Source of the DNA: Shigella phage vB_SsoM_113
Reading direction: 5' to 3' (one strand)
Length of the DNA: 64,000 nucleotides
Sequence record: LR746311
A program made the position numbers and the translations under genes. A model generated the notes under the pieces. It was given only the letters and a program-made list of their open reading frames with translations. It did not search any database and was not told the origin of the DNA. Shown piece after piece: positions 9,974 through 58,696 of this stretch (position 1 is its first letter; every line of letters begins with the position of its first letter).

Positions 9974-10002
9974 TTTACTTTTCCTCTTGACTGTGGTATA
10001 AT
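9974..10002 (+). promoter_or_regulatory. T4-type early promoter with flanking dyad
   Basis: GTTTAC, 17-bp spacer, TGGTATAAT; inverted repeat CTCTTGACTG / CAGTTAAGAG brackets the -10. Confidence 0.7.
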
Positions 10003-10498: not shown

Positions 10499-11044
10499 AT
10501 GAGAAAAGCACTACTCGCTGGTCTATTGGCCATTTCAATGATGGCACATAGCTCCGAGCATACTTTCAGTAATGTCCAACTCGATAACATGCGTTACGCA
10601 TATCAATTCGGGGAACAATTTTCTAAGGATGGAAAATATAAAACACACAAAAATATCCACAAGAGCGGATTAGGTCATATAATGGCTGCTATTTTGTGGC
10701 AAGAAAGCTCTGCCGGAGTTAATTTAAAATCTAAACCAAAGCATCATGCCTATGGAATGTTCCAAAATTATTTGCCTACTATGCGAGCAAGAGTTAAGGA
10801 ACTTGGTTATAATATGACCGATGCTGAAATAAAAAGAATGTTGAATAAACGGTCCAATTCAGCTTCCTGGGCGTACATTGAACTTTCTTATTGGTTAAAT
10901 ATACATAAGGGCGATATAAGAAAGGCGATATCCTCTTATAATTCGGGATGGAATGTTAAAGCAGGTTCTAAATATGCTTCTGAAGTCCTAGAAAAGGCTA
11001 ATTACCTTAAAAATAATAAACTTTTGGAAATAGTAAATGACTAA
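10499..11044 (+). CDS. secreted protein with signal peptide (Vs.1-like position)
   Basis: N-terminal signal peptide MRKALLAGLLAISMMAHS; 181 aa. Confidence 0.6.
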   Translation: MRKALLAGLLAISMMAHSSEHTFSNVQLDNMRYAYQFGEQFSKDGKYKTHKNIHKSGLGHIMAAILWQESSAGVNLKSKPKHHAYGMFQNYLPTMRARVKELGYNMTDAEIKRMLNKRSNSASWAYIELSYWLNIHKGDIRKAISSYNSGWNVKAGSKYASEVLEKANYLKNNKLLEIVND

Positions 11045-11384
11045 AATTTTGGTTTTATGTATAGGATTAATTTCATTTTCTGCTTCTGCGTTAGCAGATA
11101 CATCATATACTGAAATTAGAGAGTATGTAAACCGTACTGCCGCGGATTATTGTGGGAAAAATAAAGCATGCCAAGCTGAATTTGCGCAGAAATTAATATA
11201 TGCATATAAAGACGGAGAAAGAGATAAATCAAGCAGATACAAAAATGATACATTGTTAAAACGATATGCTAAAAAGTGGAATACCTTAGAATGTTCAGTT
11301 GCGGAGGAGAAAGATAAAGCCGCTTGTCATTCAATGGTTGACCGTTTAGTAGATTCTTATAATCGAGGATTGAGTACTAGATGA
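11037..11384 (+). CDS. vs: valyl-tRNA synthetase modifier-like (115 aa)
   Basis: 115 aa as recalled for T4 Vs and in the regB/tk interval; identity not verified. Confidence 0.45.
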   Translation: MTKILVLCIGLISFSASALADTSYTEIREYVNRTAADYCGKNKACQAEFAQKLIYAYKDGERDKSSRYKNDTLLKRYAKKWNTLECSVAEEKDKAACHSMVDRLVDSYNRGLSTR

Positions 11385-11860
11385 TTGTAAAATATATCAA
11401 GGGCGATATTGTCGCCCTATTTCTTCAAGGTAATATTATTGCGCACGGGTGCAATTGCTTCCACACAATGGGCTCTGGCGTAGCGGGTCAATTAGCAAGA
11501 GCCTATCCCAAAATTTTAGAAATAGATAAAACCACTACCGAGTACGGTTCTCGTGATAAATTAGGCGATATGTCTATTGTTTTTAAACATAGTCCTACGG
11601 GATTTGGTATATGCTATAACCTGTATACACAATACGAACCGGGTCCTAATCTTGATTATGGTGCTTTAGTAAACTGCATGATAGAATTAAATCTACAGGC
11701 AGAAACCCTTTTGTTTAAACCAGTAATTTACATTCCACGTATAGGTTGCGGTATTGCTGGCGGCGATTGGGATAAGGTTTCTAAATTAATCGACATGTTT
11801 ACTCCTGATATTGATTTAATAGTGGTGGATTATGAAAGTACATTACCCGCATCCGTTTGA
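11381..11860 (+). CDS. macro domain protein (ADP-ribose binding/processing)
   Basis: Macro-domain glycine-rich motifs NIIAHGCNC...GSGVAG and IGCGIAGG; 159 aa. Confidence 0.7.
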   Translation: MIVKYIKGDIVALFLQGNIIAHGCNCFHTMGSGVAGQLARAYPKILEIDKTTTEYGSRDKLGDMSIVFKHSPTGFGICYNLYTQYEPGPNLDYGALVNCMIELNLQAETLLFKPVIYIPRIGCGIAGGDWDKVSKLIDMFTPDIDLIVVDYESTLPASV

Positions 11861-12044
11861 TCCTAAAAACAAAGTGGAAATTATTCGTCAATGGGAACGC
11901 ATTTGCCGTACTAAATGCCCAATTAATAGTCCACATGGTGTAGATAAAGACTATATTGGAACATTCGTTGAATATACCTTTATTGATAAGAAAGGTCGTA
12001 AACAACACGTAGAAGAATATTGTTTAAAGGTTACATGGTTATGA
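11832..12044 (+). CDS. hypothetical protein (70 aa)
   Basis: ORF track. Confidence 0.45.
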   Translation: MKVHYPHPFDPKNKVEIIRQWERICRTKCPINSPHGVDKDYIGTFVEYTFIDKKGRKQHVEEYCLKVTWL

Positions 12045-12247
12045 GCCAAACAAGTATTCTTAAAAATGCCCACTGCGAAAAGTGTGAATGGCCAGTTGTT
12101 TTTGCTTTATGTAATGATGAAATGGCTTGTGATTTCGATTATTGGTGCTATTGTTCTAATAAAGGATGCATCAATCATAAAGGTGAAGGATTTTATTCAG
12201 GATTTTATCCTTATCCCGATTTCGTTAAAGAAGGTAAACCAAAATGA
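12020..12247 (+). CDS. hypothetical Cys-rich small protein
   Basis: ORF track; CxxC pairs (CEKCEW, CYCSNKGC) suggest metal binding; start uncertain. Confidence 0.45.
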   Translation: MFKGYMVMSQTSILKNAHCEKCEWPVVFALCNDEMACDFDYWCYCSNKGCINHKGEGFYSGFYPYPDFVKEGKPK

Positions 12248-12417
12248 ATAGTTTTGAGTTACAATATGAAGTGTTATGTGAGCTTGATAATTTAATTGAA
12301 CTCGCTGTCAATAAAGGTTTTGCCATTGGAATCGGTCAAAAAGATACTGGTCATTTAACTATGGAAATATTTAAGCAAAAGCGAATTATTTTAAAACTCC
12401 TGGAAATTAATATATGA
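12244..12417 (+). CDS. hypothetical small protein (57 aa)
   Basis: Hand-translated ORF MNSFELQYEVLCELDNLIELAVNKGF..., start overlapping preceding stop; below the track's 60-aa cut-off. Confidence 0.4.
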   Translation: MNSFELQYEVLCELDNLIELAVNKGFAIGIGQKDTGHLTMEIFKQKRIILKLLEINI

Positions 12418-12599
12418 GTCTGAGTAAAGAACAAAAAGATAAATTGTTTGAGCTTATCCATGAACTTCTAGATGAGCATACAGAAGCAAACACCTTTTAT
12501 GATGAATGCGGCCCGCTATCTCCCGATCAGCAAGAAGAATTTGCTGATCGGTTTGATAAGAAAGAAAACGAATTAATAGCTTATGTGAATACGCTTTAA
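12414..12599 (+). CDS. hypothetical small helical protein (61 aa)
   Basis: ORF track; shares the N-terminal pattern of the 14230-15331 array. Confidence 0.5.
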   Translation: MSLSKEQKDKLFELIHELLDEHTEANTFYDECGPLSPDQQEEFADRFDKKENELIAYVNTL

Positions 12600-12608
12600 G
12601 AAGGTGAT

Positions 12609-51483: not shown

Positions 51484-51666
51484 ATGGAATTGGTAAAGGT
51501 AGTTTTTATGGGGTGGTTTAAGAACGAAAGCATGTTTACTAAAGAGATCACAATGATGAAAGATGACGTTCAATGGGCTACTACTCAATATGCTGAAGTT
51601 AATAAAGCGCTAGTTAAAGCTTTCATTGATGACAAGAAGGTATGTGAAGTGGATTGCCGAGGATAA
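51484..51666 (+). CDS. dmd: Dmd, inhibitor of RnlA/LsoA toxins
   Basis: 60 aa; MELVKVVFMGWFKNESMFTKEI... matches recalled T4 Dmd (gene 61.5). Confidence 0.9.
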   Translation: MELVKVVFMGWFKNESMFTKEITMMKDDVQWATTQYAEVNKALVKAFIDDKKVCEVDCRG

Positions 51667-51985: not shown

Positions 51986-52279
51986 ATGAAAAAATTTATC
52001 TTTGCTGCAATTTTTGCTTTATCTTCTTGCGCTGCTCAGCCTGCTATGGCGGGTTATGACAAAGATTTGTGCGAATGGTCTATGACTGCAGATCAGACTG
52101 AAGTTGAAATTCAAATTGAAGCGGATATTATGAATATCGTTGAACGTGATCGTCCTGAAATGAAAGCTGAAGTGCAAAAACAACTTAAATCTGGTGGTGT
52201 AATGCAGTATAATTATGTTCTGTATTGCGATAAAAACTTTAATAATAAAAATATCATCGCTGAAGTGGTAGGTGAGTAA
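51986..52279 (+). CDS. sp: Spackle-like periplasmic protein
   Basis: 97 aa with signal peptide MKKFIFAAIFALSSCAAQPAMA; position matches T4 sp (61.3). Confidence 0.7.
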   Translation: MKKFIFAAIFALSSCAAQPAMAGYDKDLCEWSMTADQTEVEIQIEADIMNIVERDRPEMKAEVQKQLKSGGVMQYNYVLYCDKNFNNKNIIAEVVGE

Positions 52280-52291
52280 TTAGAGGTTAGT

Positions 52292-52648
52292 ATGTATAGT
52301 TCTGAATTTTCATATTTAAAAATGGAAAAAATTTCATACGATTTTATAGATGAAAAGGTTTATTACAGCTTCCATGAACCACGTTTTAATAGTGAGGTTG
52401 GGTTTATTATAGTAAAAGACAATTTCATTTTAAAAATATATTCGGCATTAAAGGATTTTCACTACGAAAATATTAACCTAAAATTTGATAAAGAAAACGT
52501 TCGTAATTGCGCAGTAACAATTACAGGAAATAAAGGTACATGCGTTATGCTATCTGATGAAATTAATGATTTGTTAAATGATGTAGAAAAAGTTGCTATT
52601 CCATCGATTGATGACCAAATTTTTAATGCTTTTATGAATAGAGGTTAA
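52292..52648 (+). CDS. hypothetical protein (118 aa), T4 61.2 position
   Basis: ORF track; SD GAGG upstream. Confidence 0.55.
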   Translation: MYSSEFSYLKMEKISYDFIDEKVYYSFHEPRFNSEVGFIIVKDNFILKIYSALKDFHYENINLKFDKENVRNCAVTITGNKGTCVMLSDEINDLLNDVEKVAIPSIDDQIFNAFMNRG

Positions 52649-52649
52649 T

Positions 52650-52814
52650 ATGAAAACATATAAAGAATTTATTAAAGAAGATATGGTAGCTGGAGATTCA
52701 GGTGGTAATCCTGAAAATATCTCCACTGGAACAACGTCAGGTGCTGTAGTAAATAAAGGTCCTGAACAGATTCCTAAAAAGAAAAAAGAGGAATCTAAAG
52801 AAAAAGAAGAGTAA
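52650..52814 (+). CDS. small protein with capsid-targeting-sequence-like N-terminus (54 aa)
   Basis: Hand-translated MKTYKEFIKEDMVAGDSGG...KKKKEESKEKEE; SD GAGG upstream; ends 2 nt before the gene 61 start. Confidence 0.5.
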   Translation: MKTYKEFIKEDMVAGDSGGNPENISTGTTSGAVVNKGPEQIPKKKKEESKEKEE

Positions 52815-57473: not shown

Positions 57474-58097
57474 ATGATTATTAATCTCGCAGATGTTGAA
57501 CAGTTATCTATAAAAGCTGAAAGTGTTGATTTTCAATATGATATGTACAAAATGGTCTGTGAAAAATTTACTGACTTTGAACAGTCAGTTCTTTGGCAGT
57601 GTATGGAAGCCAAAAAGAATGAAGCTCTTCATCGGCAGTTGAATAAAATCGTTAAAAAGCATTTAACTAAATCGCCTTATCAGCTATATCGTGGTATATC
57701 AAAATCGACAAAAGAACTCATTAAAGATTTACAAGTTGGAGAAGTGTTTTCAACGAACAGAGTAGATTCATTTACTACTAGTTTGCACACAGCATGTGGT
57801 TTTTCTTATGTTGAATATTCCACTGAAATAATATTTCGCTTAAAAACTGACAAAGCTTTTAATTATTCTGACCATATCAGCGATATTATACTTTCTTCTC
57901 CTAATACTGAGTTTAAGTATACATATGAAGATACTGATGGATTAGATTCAGAACGTACTGATAACTTAATGATGATTGTACGTGAACAAGAATGGATGAT
58001 TCCAATTGGAAAGTATAAAATAACTTCTATTTCAAAAGAAAAATTACACGATTCATTTGGAACATTTAAAGTGTATGATATTGAGGTAGTTGAATGA
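57474..58097 (+). CDS. modB: ADP-ribosyltransferase ModB-like
   Basis: 207 aa from ATG 57474 after GGAGG; paralog of next ORF; size and order match T4 modB then modA (recalled). Confidence 0.7.
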   Translation: MIINLADVEQLSIKAESVDFQYDMYKMVCEKFTDFEQSVLWQCMEAKKNEALHRQLNKIVKKHLTKSPYQLYRGISKSTKELIKDLQVGEVFSTNRVDSFTTSLHTACGFSYVEYSTEIIFRLKTDKAFNYSDHISDIILSSPNTEFKYTYEDTDGLDSERTDNLMMIVREQEWMIPIGKYKITSISKEKLHDSFGTFKVYDIEVVE

Positions 58098-58696
58098 AAT
58101 ATTCAGCAATGCAATTAAAAGATTTTAAAATAAAATCAATGGATGCATCGGTGCGTGCTTCTATTCGTGAAGAATTACTTTCTGAAGGATTTAATTTATC
58201 CGAAATTGAACTTTTAATTCATTGTATTACTAATAAGCCAGACGATCATTCTTGGTTAAATGAAATAATCAAATCTCGTTTGGTTCCAAACGATAAACCT
58301 CTTTGGAGAGGTGTTCCAGTTGAGACTAAGAAGGTGTTAAATCAAGGAATTGATATTATTACATTTGATAAAGTAGTATCAGCTTCATATGATAAAAATA
58401 TAGCTCTACATTTTGCTTCTGGATTAGAATACAACACACAAGTTATTTTTGAATTCAAAGCTCCTATGGTGTTTAATTTCCAGGAGTATGCTATAAAAGC
58501 TTTACGTTGTAAAGAATATAGCCCGAGTTTTAAATTTCCGGATAGCCATCGTTATCGTAATATGGAATTAGTTTCAGATGAACAAGAAGTAATGATACCA
58601 GCTGGAAGTGTATTTAGAATTGCGGATAGATACGAGTATAAAAAGTATTCAACATACACTATCTATACTCTTGATTTTGAAGGATTTAATCTATAA
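58094..58696 (+). CDS. modA: ADP-ribosyltransferase ModA-like
   Basis: 200 aa; paralog of preceding ORF (shared LWRGV/LYRGI and EQEVMIPAG/EQEWMIPIG segments). Confidence 0.7.
   Translation: MKYSAMQLKDFKIKSMDASVRASIREELLSEGFNLSEIELLIHCITNKPDDHSWLNEIIKSRLVPNDKPLWRGVPVETKKVLNQGIDIITFDKVVSASYDKNIALHFASGLEYNTQVIFEFKAPMVFNFQEYAIKALRCKEYSPSFKFPDSHRYRNMELVSDEQEVMIPAGSVFRIADRYEYKKYSTYTIYTLDFEGFNL

What the first reader, a model, noticed from the sequence alone, without database searches (positions are those of the whole stretch)
11381..11860. Phage macro-domain protein in a genome that also encodes ADP-ribosyltransferases
ORF 11381-11860 carries macro-domain glycine-rich motifs (NIIAHGCNC...GSGVAG and IGCGIAGG). 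The same window encodes ModA/ModB-like ADP-ribosyltransferases at 57474-58696. A macro domain could bind or remove ADP-ribose, either tuning the phage's own modifications or reversing host ADP-ribosylating defences such as DarT-type toxins. This is inference from domain content only.
Basis: inference. Interest (0 to 1): 0.5.

Follow-up and report, generated by a model that had tools for sequence, protein, structure and literature searches.

The report
T4-type phage anti-DarT macrodomain (Tk.4/AdfM)
This gene of a T4-like phage encodes a small ADP-ribose-removing (macro-domain) enzyme, a divergent version of the T4 gene tk.4/adfM that was recently shown to protect T4 from the bacterial DarTG2 defence, so the finding is real but already explained.

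Summary
The ORF at 11381-11860 is real and is a macro domain: Pfam Macro 32 bits against a cutoff of 22, PHROG 335 at E=1e-71, AlphaFold pLDDT 93.6, and top PDB matches to TARG1, BT1257, Poa1p and DarG.

The window is a Tequatrovirus. The ORF lies between vs and tk.3, which is the slot of T4 tk.4. A 2025 preprint named T4 tk.4 adfM and showed that deleting it makes T4 sensitive to DarTG2.

The window protein is only 58% identical to T4 Tk.4. The flanking genes are about 97% (vs) and 89% (tk.3) identical in DNA, so this is a gene-sized allele swap. The allele is under purifying selection (dN/dS 0.07 against JS98).

It keeps the ADP-ribose-binding Asn25 and both glycine loops. At the position of the catalytic lysine of DarG and TARG1 it has an invariant Gln84. 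The orphan hydrolase SCO6735, which cleaves thymidine-linked ADP-ribose, has an essential Gln at the same position.

The protein lacks DarG's C-terminal domain, and its bacterial relatives are stand-alone genes.

ModB and ModA are present at 57474-58696, but the macro family occurs in about three times as many phage records as ModA-like genes.

Verdict: an orphan DNA de-ADP-ribosylase acting against DarT2. This is inferred for this allele. It is already known, and of low interest.

The parts
11381..11860 (+). Macro-domain ORF, 159 aa. It is a divergent allele of T4 tk.4 / adfM.
   Evidence: ORF list. Pfam Macro 32 bits. PHROG 335 at 1e-71. AlphaFold2 pLDDT 93.6. Foldseek PDB hits to TARG1, BT1257, Poa1p and DarG. 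58% aa identity to T4 ORF 60.5 = Tk.4 over 155 aa with no gaps.
11365..11369 (+). Shine-Dalgarno-like GAGGA, 12 nt before the ATG. The ATG overlaps the vs stop codon (ATGA).
   Evidence: Read directly from the sequence. The T4 record X04567 annotates a ribosome-binding site at the same place for ORF 60.5.
9974..10002 (+). Sigma-70-like promoter (TTTACT-17-TG-TATAAT) upstream of regB. It is the probable early start of the regB-vs.1-vs-tk.4 transcription unit. This is inferred.
   Evidence: Consensus scan, 10 of 12 matches with an extended -10. The genes from regB to tk.4 abut or overlap. A consensus match alone is not proof of function.
11444..11458 (+). HGCNC motif (His22 to Cys26). Asn25 is the equivalent of DarG Asn22 and PhiKZ AdfM Asn23.
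   Evidence: Invariant in 46 family members. hhalign against the Thermus aquaticus DarG macrodomain places Asn25 on Asn22. The N23A mutation lowers PhiKZ AdfM activity (PMC13309987). His22 aligns with Poa1p His23.
11471..11488 (+). Glycine-rich phosphate-binding loop 1 (GSGVAG, residues 31-36).
   Evidence: G31 is nearly invariant; G33 and A35 are invariant. The loop aligns with MGAGIA of TARG1 and MGKGVA of DarG.
11618..11632 (+). NLYTQ motif (Asn80 to Gln84). Gln84 occupies the position of the catalytic Lys84 of TARG1 and Lys80 of DarG.
   Evidence: N80, Y82 and Q84 are invariant, and are 75 of 75 in the aligned bacterial relatives, where they were not part of the search pattern. Alignment to TARG1 and to DarG. 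SCO6735 Gln85 is at the same position and is essential (PMC9411070).
11735..11770 (+). Loop 2, PRIGCGIAGGDW (residues 119-130). Ala126 sits where TARG1 has Asp125.
   Evidence: Same pattern as SCO6735 PRIGCGLAGGTW and BT1257 PRIGCGLAGGKW. TARG1 has PRIGCGLDRLQW. The T4 allele has PRIGAGIGKGNW.
11451..11880 (.). Allele-swap segment. DNA identity to T4 drops to about 53-58% here, while the flanks stay high.
   Evidence: Pairwise alignment with T4 and segment identities: vs 97.4%; tk.4 nt 151-452 53.3%; tk.3 88.7% overall, rising to 92-98% from 11900. dS against T4 is 1.9, which is saturated.
11037..11384 (+). vs (valyl-tRNA synthetase modifier), the upstream neighbour that fixes positional orthology.
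   Evidence: Annotation of Sf21 and T4. 97.4% nt identity to T4.
11832..12044 (+). tk.3, the downstream neighbour. It overlaps the last 29 nt of the macro ORF.
   Evidence: ORF list and annotation. The overlap results from a 13-nt gap relative to T4.
57474..58097 (+). ModB ADP-ribosyltransferase. This is context named in the finding; no functional link to the macro gene was found.
   Evidence: ORF. Annotated 'ribosylates ribosomal proteins; ADP-ribosylase', 624 nt, in Sf21. Megablast 98.6% to records annotated modB/modA.
58094..58696 (+). ModA ADP-ribosyltransferase. This is context named in the finding; no functional link to the macro gene was found.
   Evidence: ORF of 200 aa. 99.5% aa identity to ime09 modA.

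Best explanation
The ORF encodes an early-expressed, stand-alone macrodomain of the ALC1-like class. It is the allelic counterpart of T4 Tk.4 (AdfM). When a host DarT2 toxin is unleashed by infection, it ADP-ribosylates thymidines in single-stranded DNA and stalls replication. The proposal is that the phage enzyme binds the ADP-ribose through Asp9, Asn25 and the two glycine loops, and hydrolyses the ribose-thymine bond. It would then act as an orphan antitoxin that restores phage DNA replication on DarTG2 hosts. The chemistry is probably that of SCO6735, with Gln84 positioning the distal ribose for attack by water. It is probably not the lysine mechanism of DarG and TARG1. What is shown here: the fold, the conserved residues, positional orthology, the allele swap and purifying selection. 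What is shown elsewhere: the anti-DarTG2 phenotype of T4 tk.4, and thymidine-ADP-ribose hydrolysis by SCO6735 and PhiKZ AdfM. What is inferred: that this 58%-identical allele does the same, and that the mechanism is enzymatic.
For: Macro fold and family membership. Same slot as T4 tk.4 between vs and tk.3, and 58% identity over the full length with no gaps. T4 tk.4 was the single hit under DarTG2, and a clean knockout sensitised T4. Every family-invariant residue is shared by the window and T4 alleles. Asn25 maps to DarG Asn22 and Gln84 maps to DarG Lys80 (hhalign probability 97.9%). SCO6735 has Gln85 at the same position; Q85A abolishes dT-ADPr hydrolysis, and SCO6735 rescues cells from DarT toxicity. 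[quoted passage not shown] The only PADLOC hit is DarG at 5e-7, and the best NCBIfam hit is antitoxin DarG. dN/dS is 0.07 against the JS98 allele at dS 0.67. The gene is translationally coupled to vs, downstream of an early-type promoter in front of regB.
Against: No experiment exists on this allele; 42% of its residues differ from the tested T4 protein. Loop 2 also differs: PRIGCGIAGGDW here against PRIGAGIGKGNW in T4. The T4 evidence is a preprint. It shows a phenotype, not biochemistry, and the authors themselves only call enzymatic removal 'likely'. The catalytic lysine of DarG, TARG1 and PhiKZ AdfM is absent. The phage family also lacks the longer mobile loop that marks the SCO6735/BT1257 subclass (6-residue insert in BT1257; paper). 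The SCO6735 precedent is therefore not exact. The closest single-sequence PDB hits also include Poa1p, an ADP-ribose-1''-phosphate phosphatase.
Confidence: 0.7

Rival explanations
1. The protein is a small-molecule ADP-ribose metabolite hydrolase, either a Poa1p-like ADP-ribose-1''-phosphate phosphatase or an O-acetyl-ADP-ribose deacetylase. It would tidy NAD-derived metabolites during infection. This is the activity implied by the database label 'phosphatase'.
For: Poa1p is among the best PDB sequence hits (E=1.6e-9; 3.8e-14 with the profile). The HxCNC motif matches Poa1p HSCNC, with His22 aligned to Poa1p His23, a residue that was mutated (H23A) for one of the deposited Poa1p structures. 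GenBank, PHROG and JGI labels read 'phosphatase', 'A1pp phosphatase motif' and 'O-acetyl-ADP-ribose deacetylase'.
Against: Those labels are transferred by homology and were never tested. No source of ADP-ribose-1''-phosphate is known in T4 infection (general knowledge). The T4 orthologue has a specific phenotype under DarTG2 and is dispensable on plain K-12. ALC1-like enzymes such as TARG1 have both metabolite and DNA activities, so a metabolite activity would not exclude the anti-DarT role.
Confidence: 0.1
2. The protein erases or tunes the phage's own ADP-ribosylation by Alt, ModA and ModB. Targets would be arginine-ADP-ribose on RNA polymerase alpha, ribosomal protein S1 and others, or ModB RNAylation.
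For: ModB and ModA are encoded in the same window. Arginine-specific macrodomains do exist, for example Legionella MavL (title and abstract of PMC10951314).
Against: The distributions do not match. The macro family is in 2789 phage records across many genera. ModA-like genes are in 927 records, with enterobacterial (T-even-type) names dominating the tally. The nearest solved relatives act on ester-linked or thymidine-linked ADP-ribose, not arginine (general knowledge for TARG1). tk.4 is 46 kb from modA/modB and in a different transcription unit. T4 tk.4 is dispensable without DarTG2.
Confidence: 0.05
3. The protein does counter a host ADP-ribosyltransferase, but differently from T4 AdfM. It might inhibit DarT by direct binding without catalysis. 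Alternatively, this allele might be tuned to a different toxin, such as another DarT2 variant or another nucleic-acid ADP-ribosyltransferase. That would explain why the allele has been exchanged.
For: Catalytically dead SCO6735 Q85A still inhibits DarT by interaction, more strongly than dead DarG or TARG1. The locus is a gene-sized swap with saturated dS inside otherwise 89-100% identical flanks. Many allele classes exist (97, 82, 79, 76, 65, 58% identity clusters). Loop 2 differs between the window and T4 alleles.
Against: All residues expected for ADP-ribose binding and SCO6735-type catalysis are invariant, which argues for an enzyme. Mosaic exchange of small early genes is ordinary in T-even phages (the tk.2/tk.1 region next door is also replaced), so the swap need not reflect specificity. 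The protein has no DarT-binding C-terminal domain.
Confidence: 0.12

Closest known systems
T4 Tk.4 = AdfM (anti-DarT factor macrodomain; bioRxiv 10.1101/2025.11.20.689424)
   Same: Same genomic slot between vs and tk.3. Same length class (155 against 159 aa). 58% identity with no gaps. All family-invariant residues are shared, including His22, Asn25 and Gln84.
   Different: 42% of residues differ. Loop 2 is PRIGCGIAGGDW here and PRIGAGIGKGNW in T4. The window protein has a 4-residue longer C-terminal tail that overlaps tk.3. DNA identity inside the gene is about 53-58% while the flanks are about 97% (vs) and 89% (tk.3) identical. The anti-DarTG2 phenotype has been tested only for the T4 allele.
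SCO6735 (Streptomyces coelicolor) and Bt_1257 (Bacteroides): orphan ALC1-like macrodomains, PDB 5E3B and 2FG1
   Same: Stand-alone proteins of about 150-180 aa. Gln at the position of the catalytic lysine. PRIGCGxAGGxW loop. BT1257 is the best PDB sequence match. SCO6735 hydrolyses thymidine-linked ADP-ribose and protects against DarT.
   Different: Only about 26% identity to BT1257. The phage family lacks the longer 'mobile loop' typical of that subclass (6-residue insert in BT1257 relative to the family profile; paper). The first motif is HGCNC instead of H-V-x-N (SCO6735) or HICND (BT1257).
DarG, the antitoxin of the DarTG2 toxin-antitoxin system (PDB 5M31, 5M3E, 5M3I)
   Same: Same macrodomain class. 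hhalign probability 97.9%, E=4.6e-13. Asn22 equivalent is conserved. Presumed same substrate, ADP-ribosyl-thymidine in ssDNA.
   Different: Lys80 is replaced by Gln84. There is no C-terminal DarT-binding domain: 159 aa against a DarG model of about 330-340 positions, of which only positions 2-142 match, scoring 27.7 bits against a cutoff of 250. It is not next to a darT gene.
PhiKZ gp104, also named AdfM (Cell Rep 2026, PMC13309987)
   Same: A phage-encoded orphan macrodomain that removes DarT2 ADP-ribose from DNA. The conserved Asn (N23) corresponds to Asn25 here.
   Different: A different lineage. BLASTP finds only motif-level similarity (23 aa, E=0.001). PhiKZ AdfM is DarG-like, keeps the lysine (K78), and matches the DarG macrodomains (M. 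tuberculosis and T. aquaticus) at 9e-25 and 3e-19. It is imported into the phage nucleus.
Human TARG1 (OARD1/C6orf130)
   Same: Top structural match (Foldseek E=6.5e-10, TM 0.72-0.83). ALC1-like class. It can also reverse DarT DNA modification (title and abstract of PMC8501950).
   Different: Neither residue of the catalytic dyad Lys84/Asp125 is conserved; the window protein has Gln84 and Ala126.
T4 AdfN (gp30.3, NADAR) and AdfA (gp61.2)
   Same: Functional analogues: phage orphan counter-defences against DarT toxins.
   Different: Unrelated folds. They act against DarTG1 (guanosine), not DarTG2. adfN lies outside this window, and full-length adfA is absent from its usual place in the window.

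Membership tests
Macro domain superfamily (Pfam PF01661) | Profile HMM score above the curated gathering threshold | tested here: met
   32 bits against a cutoff of 22, E=1.3e-7, covering profile positions 2-117 of 118.
Macro domain superfamily (Pfam PF01661) | Three-layer alpha/beta/alpha macro fold | tested here: met
   AlphaFold2 mean pLDDT 93.6, pTM 0.88. Foldseek PDB matches to TARG1, BT1257, Poa1p and DarG at probability 1.00.
Macro domain superfamily (Pfam PF01661) | ADP-ribose-binding residues: conserved Asn, two glycine-rich loops, and an Asp near the N-terminus | tested here: met
   Asn25, GSGVAG (31-36), GCGIAGG (122-128) and KGD (7-9) are present. G8, N25, G33, G122 and G124 are invariant and G31 nearly so; Asp9 is D in most family members and N in a few. 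Asn25 aligns with DarG Asn22. Binding itself was not measured.
T4 Tk.4 / AdfM (anti-DarTG2 factor of T-even phages) | Positional orthology: the gene lies between vs and tk.3 in the regB-tk early region | tested here: met
   Gene order regB, vs.1, vs, macro, tk.3 … tk, as in T4, Sf21 and JS98.
T4 Tk.4 / AdfM (anti-DarTG2 factor of T-even phages) | Full-length sequence homology to T4 Tk.4 | tested here: met
   BLASTP 58% identity, 74% positives, 155 of 155 residues aligned with no gaps, E=1e-70.
T4 Tk.4 / AdfM (anti-DarTG2 factor of T-even phages) | Protects the phage against DarTG2 | not testable with these tools
   Shown only for the T4 allele. It needs plaque assays with a deletion or complementation of this allele.
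SCO6735/Bt_1257-type orphan ALC1-like macrodomain | Gln in place of the catalytic Lys of TARG1 and DarG | tested here: met
   Gln84 aligns with TARG1 Lys84 and DarG Lys80. It is invariant in 46 family members and in 75 of 75 aligned bacterial relatives. SCO6735 Gln85 is equivalent to those lysines.
SCO6735/Bt_1257-type orphan ALC1-like macrodomain | Longer 'mobile loop', about 5 residues longer than in TARG1 and DarG | tested here: not met
   BT1257 carries a 6-residue insertion relative to the phage-family profile just after the NxYTQ…G motif. The paper states the long loop is characteristic of that subclass. The phage family is therefore a neighbour of the subclass, not a member of it.
SCO6735/Bt_1257-type orphan ALC1-like macrodomain | Stand-alone gene, not in a darT operon | tested here: met
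   The window gene is flanked by vs and tk.3. The 80 bacterial relatives are ORFs of at most 146-269 aa (median about 155), and no neighbour is conserved beyond a single clade.
DarG antitoxin (DarTG2) | Catalytic lysine (Lys80 in Thermus aquaticus DarG) | tested here: not met
   Gln84 is at that position.
DarG antitoxin (DarTG2) | C-terminal DarT-binding domain; full-length match to the DarG equivalog model | tested here: not met
   NCBIfam NF048014 scores 27.7 bits against a cutoff of 250, with only profile positions 2-142 of 338 matched. PADLOC DarG matches positions 3-144 of 329.
DarG antitoxin (DarTG2) | Encoded next to its darT toxin gene | tested here: not met
   The neighbours are the phage genes vs and tk.3.
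Poa1p-like ADP-ribose-1''-phosphate phosphatase | Sequence similarity including the HxCNC motif with the His mutated in the Poa1p structures (H23) | tested here: met
   E=1.6e-9 to 6LFU. HGCNC aligns with Poa1p HSCNC. H23A and S30A mutant structures are listed.
Poa1p-like ADP-ribose-1''-phosphate phosphatase | Appr-1''-p phosphatase activity | not testable with these tools
   This needs an enzyme assay. The 'phosphatase' label in the databases is transferred by homology.

The most novel reading that the evidence does not exclude
The Tk.4-type phage macrodomains, including this allele, may not be captured DarG antitoxins. They may be a separate, lysine-less branch of the ALC1-like class, recruited from stand-alone bacterial housekeeping macrodomains and using a Gln/water mechanism. 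The repeated gene-sized allele replacement at this locus (window-type against T4-type, with loop 2 GCGIAGGD against GAGIGKGN) might then reflect selection for different substrate or toxin specificities, for example different DarT2 variants or other base-linked ADP-ribosylation.
Probability: 0.25. Interest if true: 0.45.

Novelty: already known. Interest (0 to 1): 0.22.

Why it matters
DarTG systems block phages by ADP-ribosylating their DNA. How T-even phages escape DarTG2 was an open question until late 2025, when T4 tk.4 (adfM) was identified as the escape factor. This window carries the other common allele of that gene, so the finding mainly confirms an explained feature. Three things remain useful. 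First, roughly 300 database phage records carry the window-type allele, and it has not been tested. Second, the whole Tk.4 family lacks the DarG/TARG1 catalytic lysine and resembles SCO6735 chemistry, which the T4 preprint does not discuss. Third, the locus is a recombination cassette, which could help predict the host range of therapeutic T4-like phages on DarTG2-carrying strains.

Tried and rejected
1. Link to ModA/ModB. I compared the phage distributions by tblastn: 2789 records for the macro family against 927 for ModA-like genes. Co-dependence was rejected.

2. DarG membership. The PADLOC and NCBIfam DarG models hit only the macro half and score far below cutoff. Rejected.

3. Close kinship with PhiKZ AdfM. 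BLASTP finds only a 23-aa motif match. It is a different lineage that happens to share the name.

4. A darT or other conserved partner next to bacterial relatives. I clustered 692 neighbouring ORFs from 80 loci. The only shared neighbours are clade-level synteny, such as a beta-prime-type RNA polymerase subunit in Ruegeria and an aminoacyl-tRNA-synthetase-like ORF in Hyphomicrobiaceae, judged from the printed example sequences. No partner was found. The 80 loci were retrieved with patterns from two of the conserved motifs, so conservation of those motifs there is circular. Q84, N80, Y82 and D49 were not in the patterns.

5. A residue-level alignment to SCO6735 around Gln85. Only loop 2 aligned in the fragment search. 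The Gln equivalence therefore rests on my alignments to TARG1 and DarG plus the structural alignment in the paper. 5E3B was not among the top 50 Foldseek hits.

6. The hairpin at 11400-11418 as a terminator or regulatory RNA. The fold z-score is -1.76 and the U-tract is poor. It was not pursued.

7. Evidence that window-type phages are DarTG2-resistant. The AdfN paper tested the BASEL T-even phages only on DarTG1, so none was found.

I used DNA alignment instead.
Full report
WHAT IS THERE. The ORF at 11381-11860 (+) is real. It has an ATG start, encodes 159 aa, and carries the quoted motifs NIIAHGCNC, GSGVAG and IGCGIAGG. Its ATG overlaps the stop codon of the upstream gene (…AGATGA…), and a GAGGA Shine-Dalgarno sequence lies 12 nt upstream.

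The protein passes the Pfam Macro model: 32 bits against a cutoff of 22, E=1.3e-7, with nearly the whole profile covered. It matches PHROG 335 at E=1.2e-71. With an alignment of 46 homologues, AlphaFold2 gives a confident model (mean pLDDT 93.6, pTM 0.88). Its best solved-structure matches are TARG1, BT1257, Poa1p and the DarG macrodomains, all at probability 1.00.

WHERE IT IS. The window is a T4-like Tequatrovirus, read on the strand opposite to the T4 map. The local gene order is regB, vs.1, vs, macro ORF, tk.3 and so on to tk. The ORF therefore occupies the slot of T4 tk.4, called ORF 60.5 in the old T4 record.

A sigma-70-type promoter with an extended -10 lies just upstream of regB (9974-10002). 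The genes from regB onwards abut or overlap, so co-transcription as an early unit is plausible but inferred.

RELATION TO T4. The protein is 58% identical to T4 Tk.4 over 155 residues with no gaps. The DNA comparison is striking:
- The end of vs.1 is 100% identical to T4, and vs is 97.4% identical.
- Identity holds at 100% through about the first 40 nt of the macro gene and then decays (85.7% over its first 70 nt).
- It falls to about 53-58% through the rest of the gene.
- It recovers in tk.3 (88.7% overall, 92-98% from 11900).

Synonymous divergence from T4 inside the gene is saturated (dS 1.9), whereas the flanks are nearly identical. This is a gene-sized allele replacement.

The window-type allele is found at ≥90% protein identity in about 312 phage records. 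It is 93% identical in the Dhakavirus JS98. Against JS98, dN/dS is 0.07 at dS 0.67, so the allele is a functional gene under purifying selection. Protein clusters at 97, 82, 79, 76, 65 and 58% identity show that many alleles exist.

WHAT IS KNOWN ABOUT THE ORTHOLOGUE. A preprint of November 2025 (bioRxiv 10.1101/2025.11.20.689424) screened a T4 transposon library on a DarTG2 host. It found tk.4 as the single significant hit and showed that a clean knockout sensitises T4 to DarTG2. The authors named the gene adfM, for anti-DarT factor macrodomain, and judged enzymatic removal of ADP-ribose from DNA to be 'likely'.

Earlier work had shown that T4 lacking AdfA and AdfN stays resistant to DarTG2, and it predicted such a factor. 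Independently, the macrodomain gp104 of phage PhiKZ, also named AdfM, was shown in vitro to remove DarT2-made ADP-ribose from DNA. An N23A mutation in it reduced activity (PMC13309987).

ACTIVE SITE. Across 46 family members the invariant positions are G8, H22, G23, N25, C26, G33, A35, D49, G62, N80, Y82, Q84, P119, G122, G124 and W130.

A profile alignment to TARG1 places Gln84 on the catalytic Lys84 and Ala126 on Asp125. I rebuilt the Thermus aquaticus DarG macrodomain sequence from a PDB alignment and compared it with the family profile. The result (probability 97.9%, E=4.6e-13) places Asn25 on DarG Asn22 and Gln84 on DarG Lys80.

So the ADP-ribose-binding asparagine and both glycine loops are kept, but the lysine used by DarG, TARG1 and PhiKZ AdfM (K78) is not. 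This has a direct precedent. The orphan macrodomain SCO6735 of Streptomyces coelicolor has Gln85 at this position. It hydrolyses thymidine-linked ADP-ribose faster than DarG or TARG1, loses all activity when mutated to Q85A, and protects cells from DarT (PMC9411070).

The window protein also shares the loop PRIGCGxAGGxW with SCO6735 and with its 54%-identical relative Bt_1257. Bt_1257 is the best PDB sequence match. The phage family lacks the longer mobile loop of that subclass. It is therefore a neighbour of SCO6735 and Bt_1257, not a member of their subclass. The tested T4 allele differs from the window allele and from the family consensus in loop 2: PRIGAGIGKGNW, with Lys127 where more than 90% of members have Gly.

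NOT A DarG. The DarG models of PADLOC and NCBIfam are the best defence-related hits. However, only their macro half matches, and the NCBIfam score is 27.7 bits against a cutoff of 250. There is no C-terminal DarT-binding domain and no adjacent darT gene.

Relatives in bacterial genomes (80 loci, at most 44% identity) are stand-alone ORFs of about 150-190 aa in varied chromosomal contexts. No neighbour is conserved beyond a single clade. They all keep Gln84, Asn80, Tyr82 and Asp49, none of which was part of the search patterns. The family therefore looks recruited from orphan bacterial macrodomains rather than from DarG.

THE ModA/ModB IDEA. Macro relatives occur in 2789 phage records, including Klebsiella, Salmonella, Pseudomonas, Vibrio, Acinetobacter, Aeromonas and Felix O1-like phages. 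ModA-like genes occur in 927 records whose names are dominated by enterobacterial, T-even-type phages. The two are not co-dependent.

From the literature, Alt and ModA modify arginine, whereas this macrodomain class acts on ester-linked or thymidine-linked ADP-ribose. Arginine-specific macrodomains do exist (MavL), so this reading keeps a small probability.

VERDICT. The finding is a correct identification of a macro-domain gene. The most likely function is an orphan DNA ADP-ribosylglycohydrolase acting against DarT2, probably with SCO6735-like Gln chemistry. My confidence is about 0.7, because this allele itself has not been tested and the T4 evidence is genetic only. The gene is already annotated as a macro domain or 'phosphatase' in hundreds of genomes, so novelty is low. 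The residual interest lies in the missing lysine, the allele swapping and the untested window-type allele.

Noticed in passing
window 52292-52648 (+), between sp (51986-52279) and 61.1 (52650-52814): The full-length 61.2/adfA gene (210 aa in Sf21), which is the anti-DarT1 factor AdfA, is missing from its usual place. Only a 118-aa short paralogue (RB32 gp33-like) with the same C-terminus (…SIDDQIFNAFMNRG) remains. The roughly 620-bp difference from Sf21 is bounded by a 49-bp repeat encoding that shared C-terminus, which suggests deletion by recombination. The AdfN paper notes that only 13 of 17 Tevenvirinae carry adfA.
   Followed up: partly
window 11400-11418 (+): An 8-bp hairpin, AGGGCGAT-ATT-GTCGCCCT, lies within codons 7-13 (KGDIVAL) of the macro ORF and was flagged as terminator-like. 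The stem is identical in T4, JS98 and C6; only one loop base varies, although synonymous sites elsewhere are heavily diverged. The RNA fold z-score is only -1.76 and the U-tract is weak. It may simply mark the 5' recombination boundary.
   Followed up: partly
window 11832-12027 (tk.3): tk.3 has about 80% nucleotide matches in phages with genomes of about 130-150 kb that look rV5-like from memory (nieznany, KKP 3954, EP57, ETEC-TG; taxonomy not checked). It is annotated there as a hypothetical protein or 'ABC transporter ATP-binding protein'. If the family assignment holds, this would indicate exchange of this small gene between phage families (H131-H134).
   Followed up: no
window 12045-12600: The region between tk.3 and tk does not correspond to T4 tk.2/tk.1 (48% aligned identity with many gaps). 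It holds other small ORFs, including a Cys-rich 75-aa ORF at 12020-12247 (CEKCEW…CNDEMAC…WCYCSNKGCINH) of unknown function. This is a second cassette swap right next to the macro gene.
   Followed up: no
window 11832-11860: The macro ORF overlaps tk.3 by 29 nt because of a 13-nt gap relative to T4, where the two genes overlap by only 4 nt (ATGA). The extra C-terminal tail (…STLPASV) has low model confidence (pLDDT about 62) and is probably disordered.
   Followed up: partly
window 51484-51666 (+): A 60-aa ORF lies at the position of dmd, the T4 antitoxin mimic against RnlA/LsoA, judged by synteny with Sf21 gp38. If correct, the window holds a second, unrelated 'orphan antitoxin'. I did not verify this by a search.
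   Followed up: no
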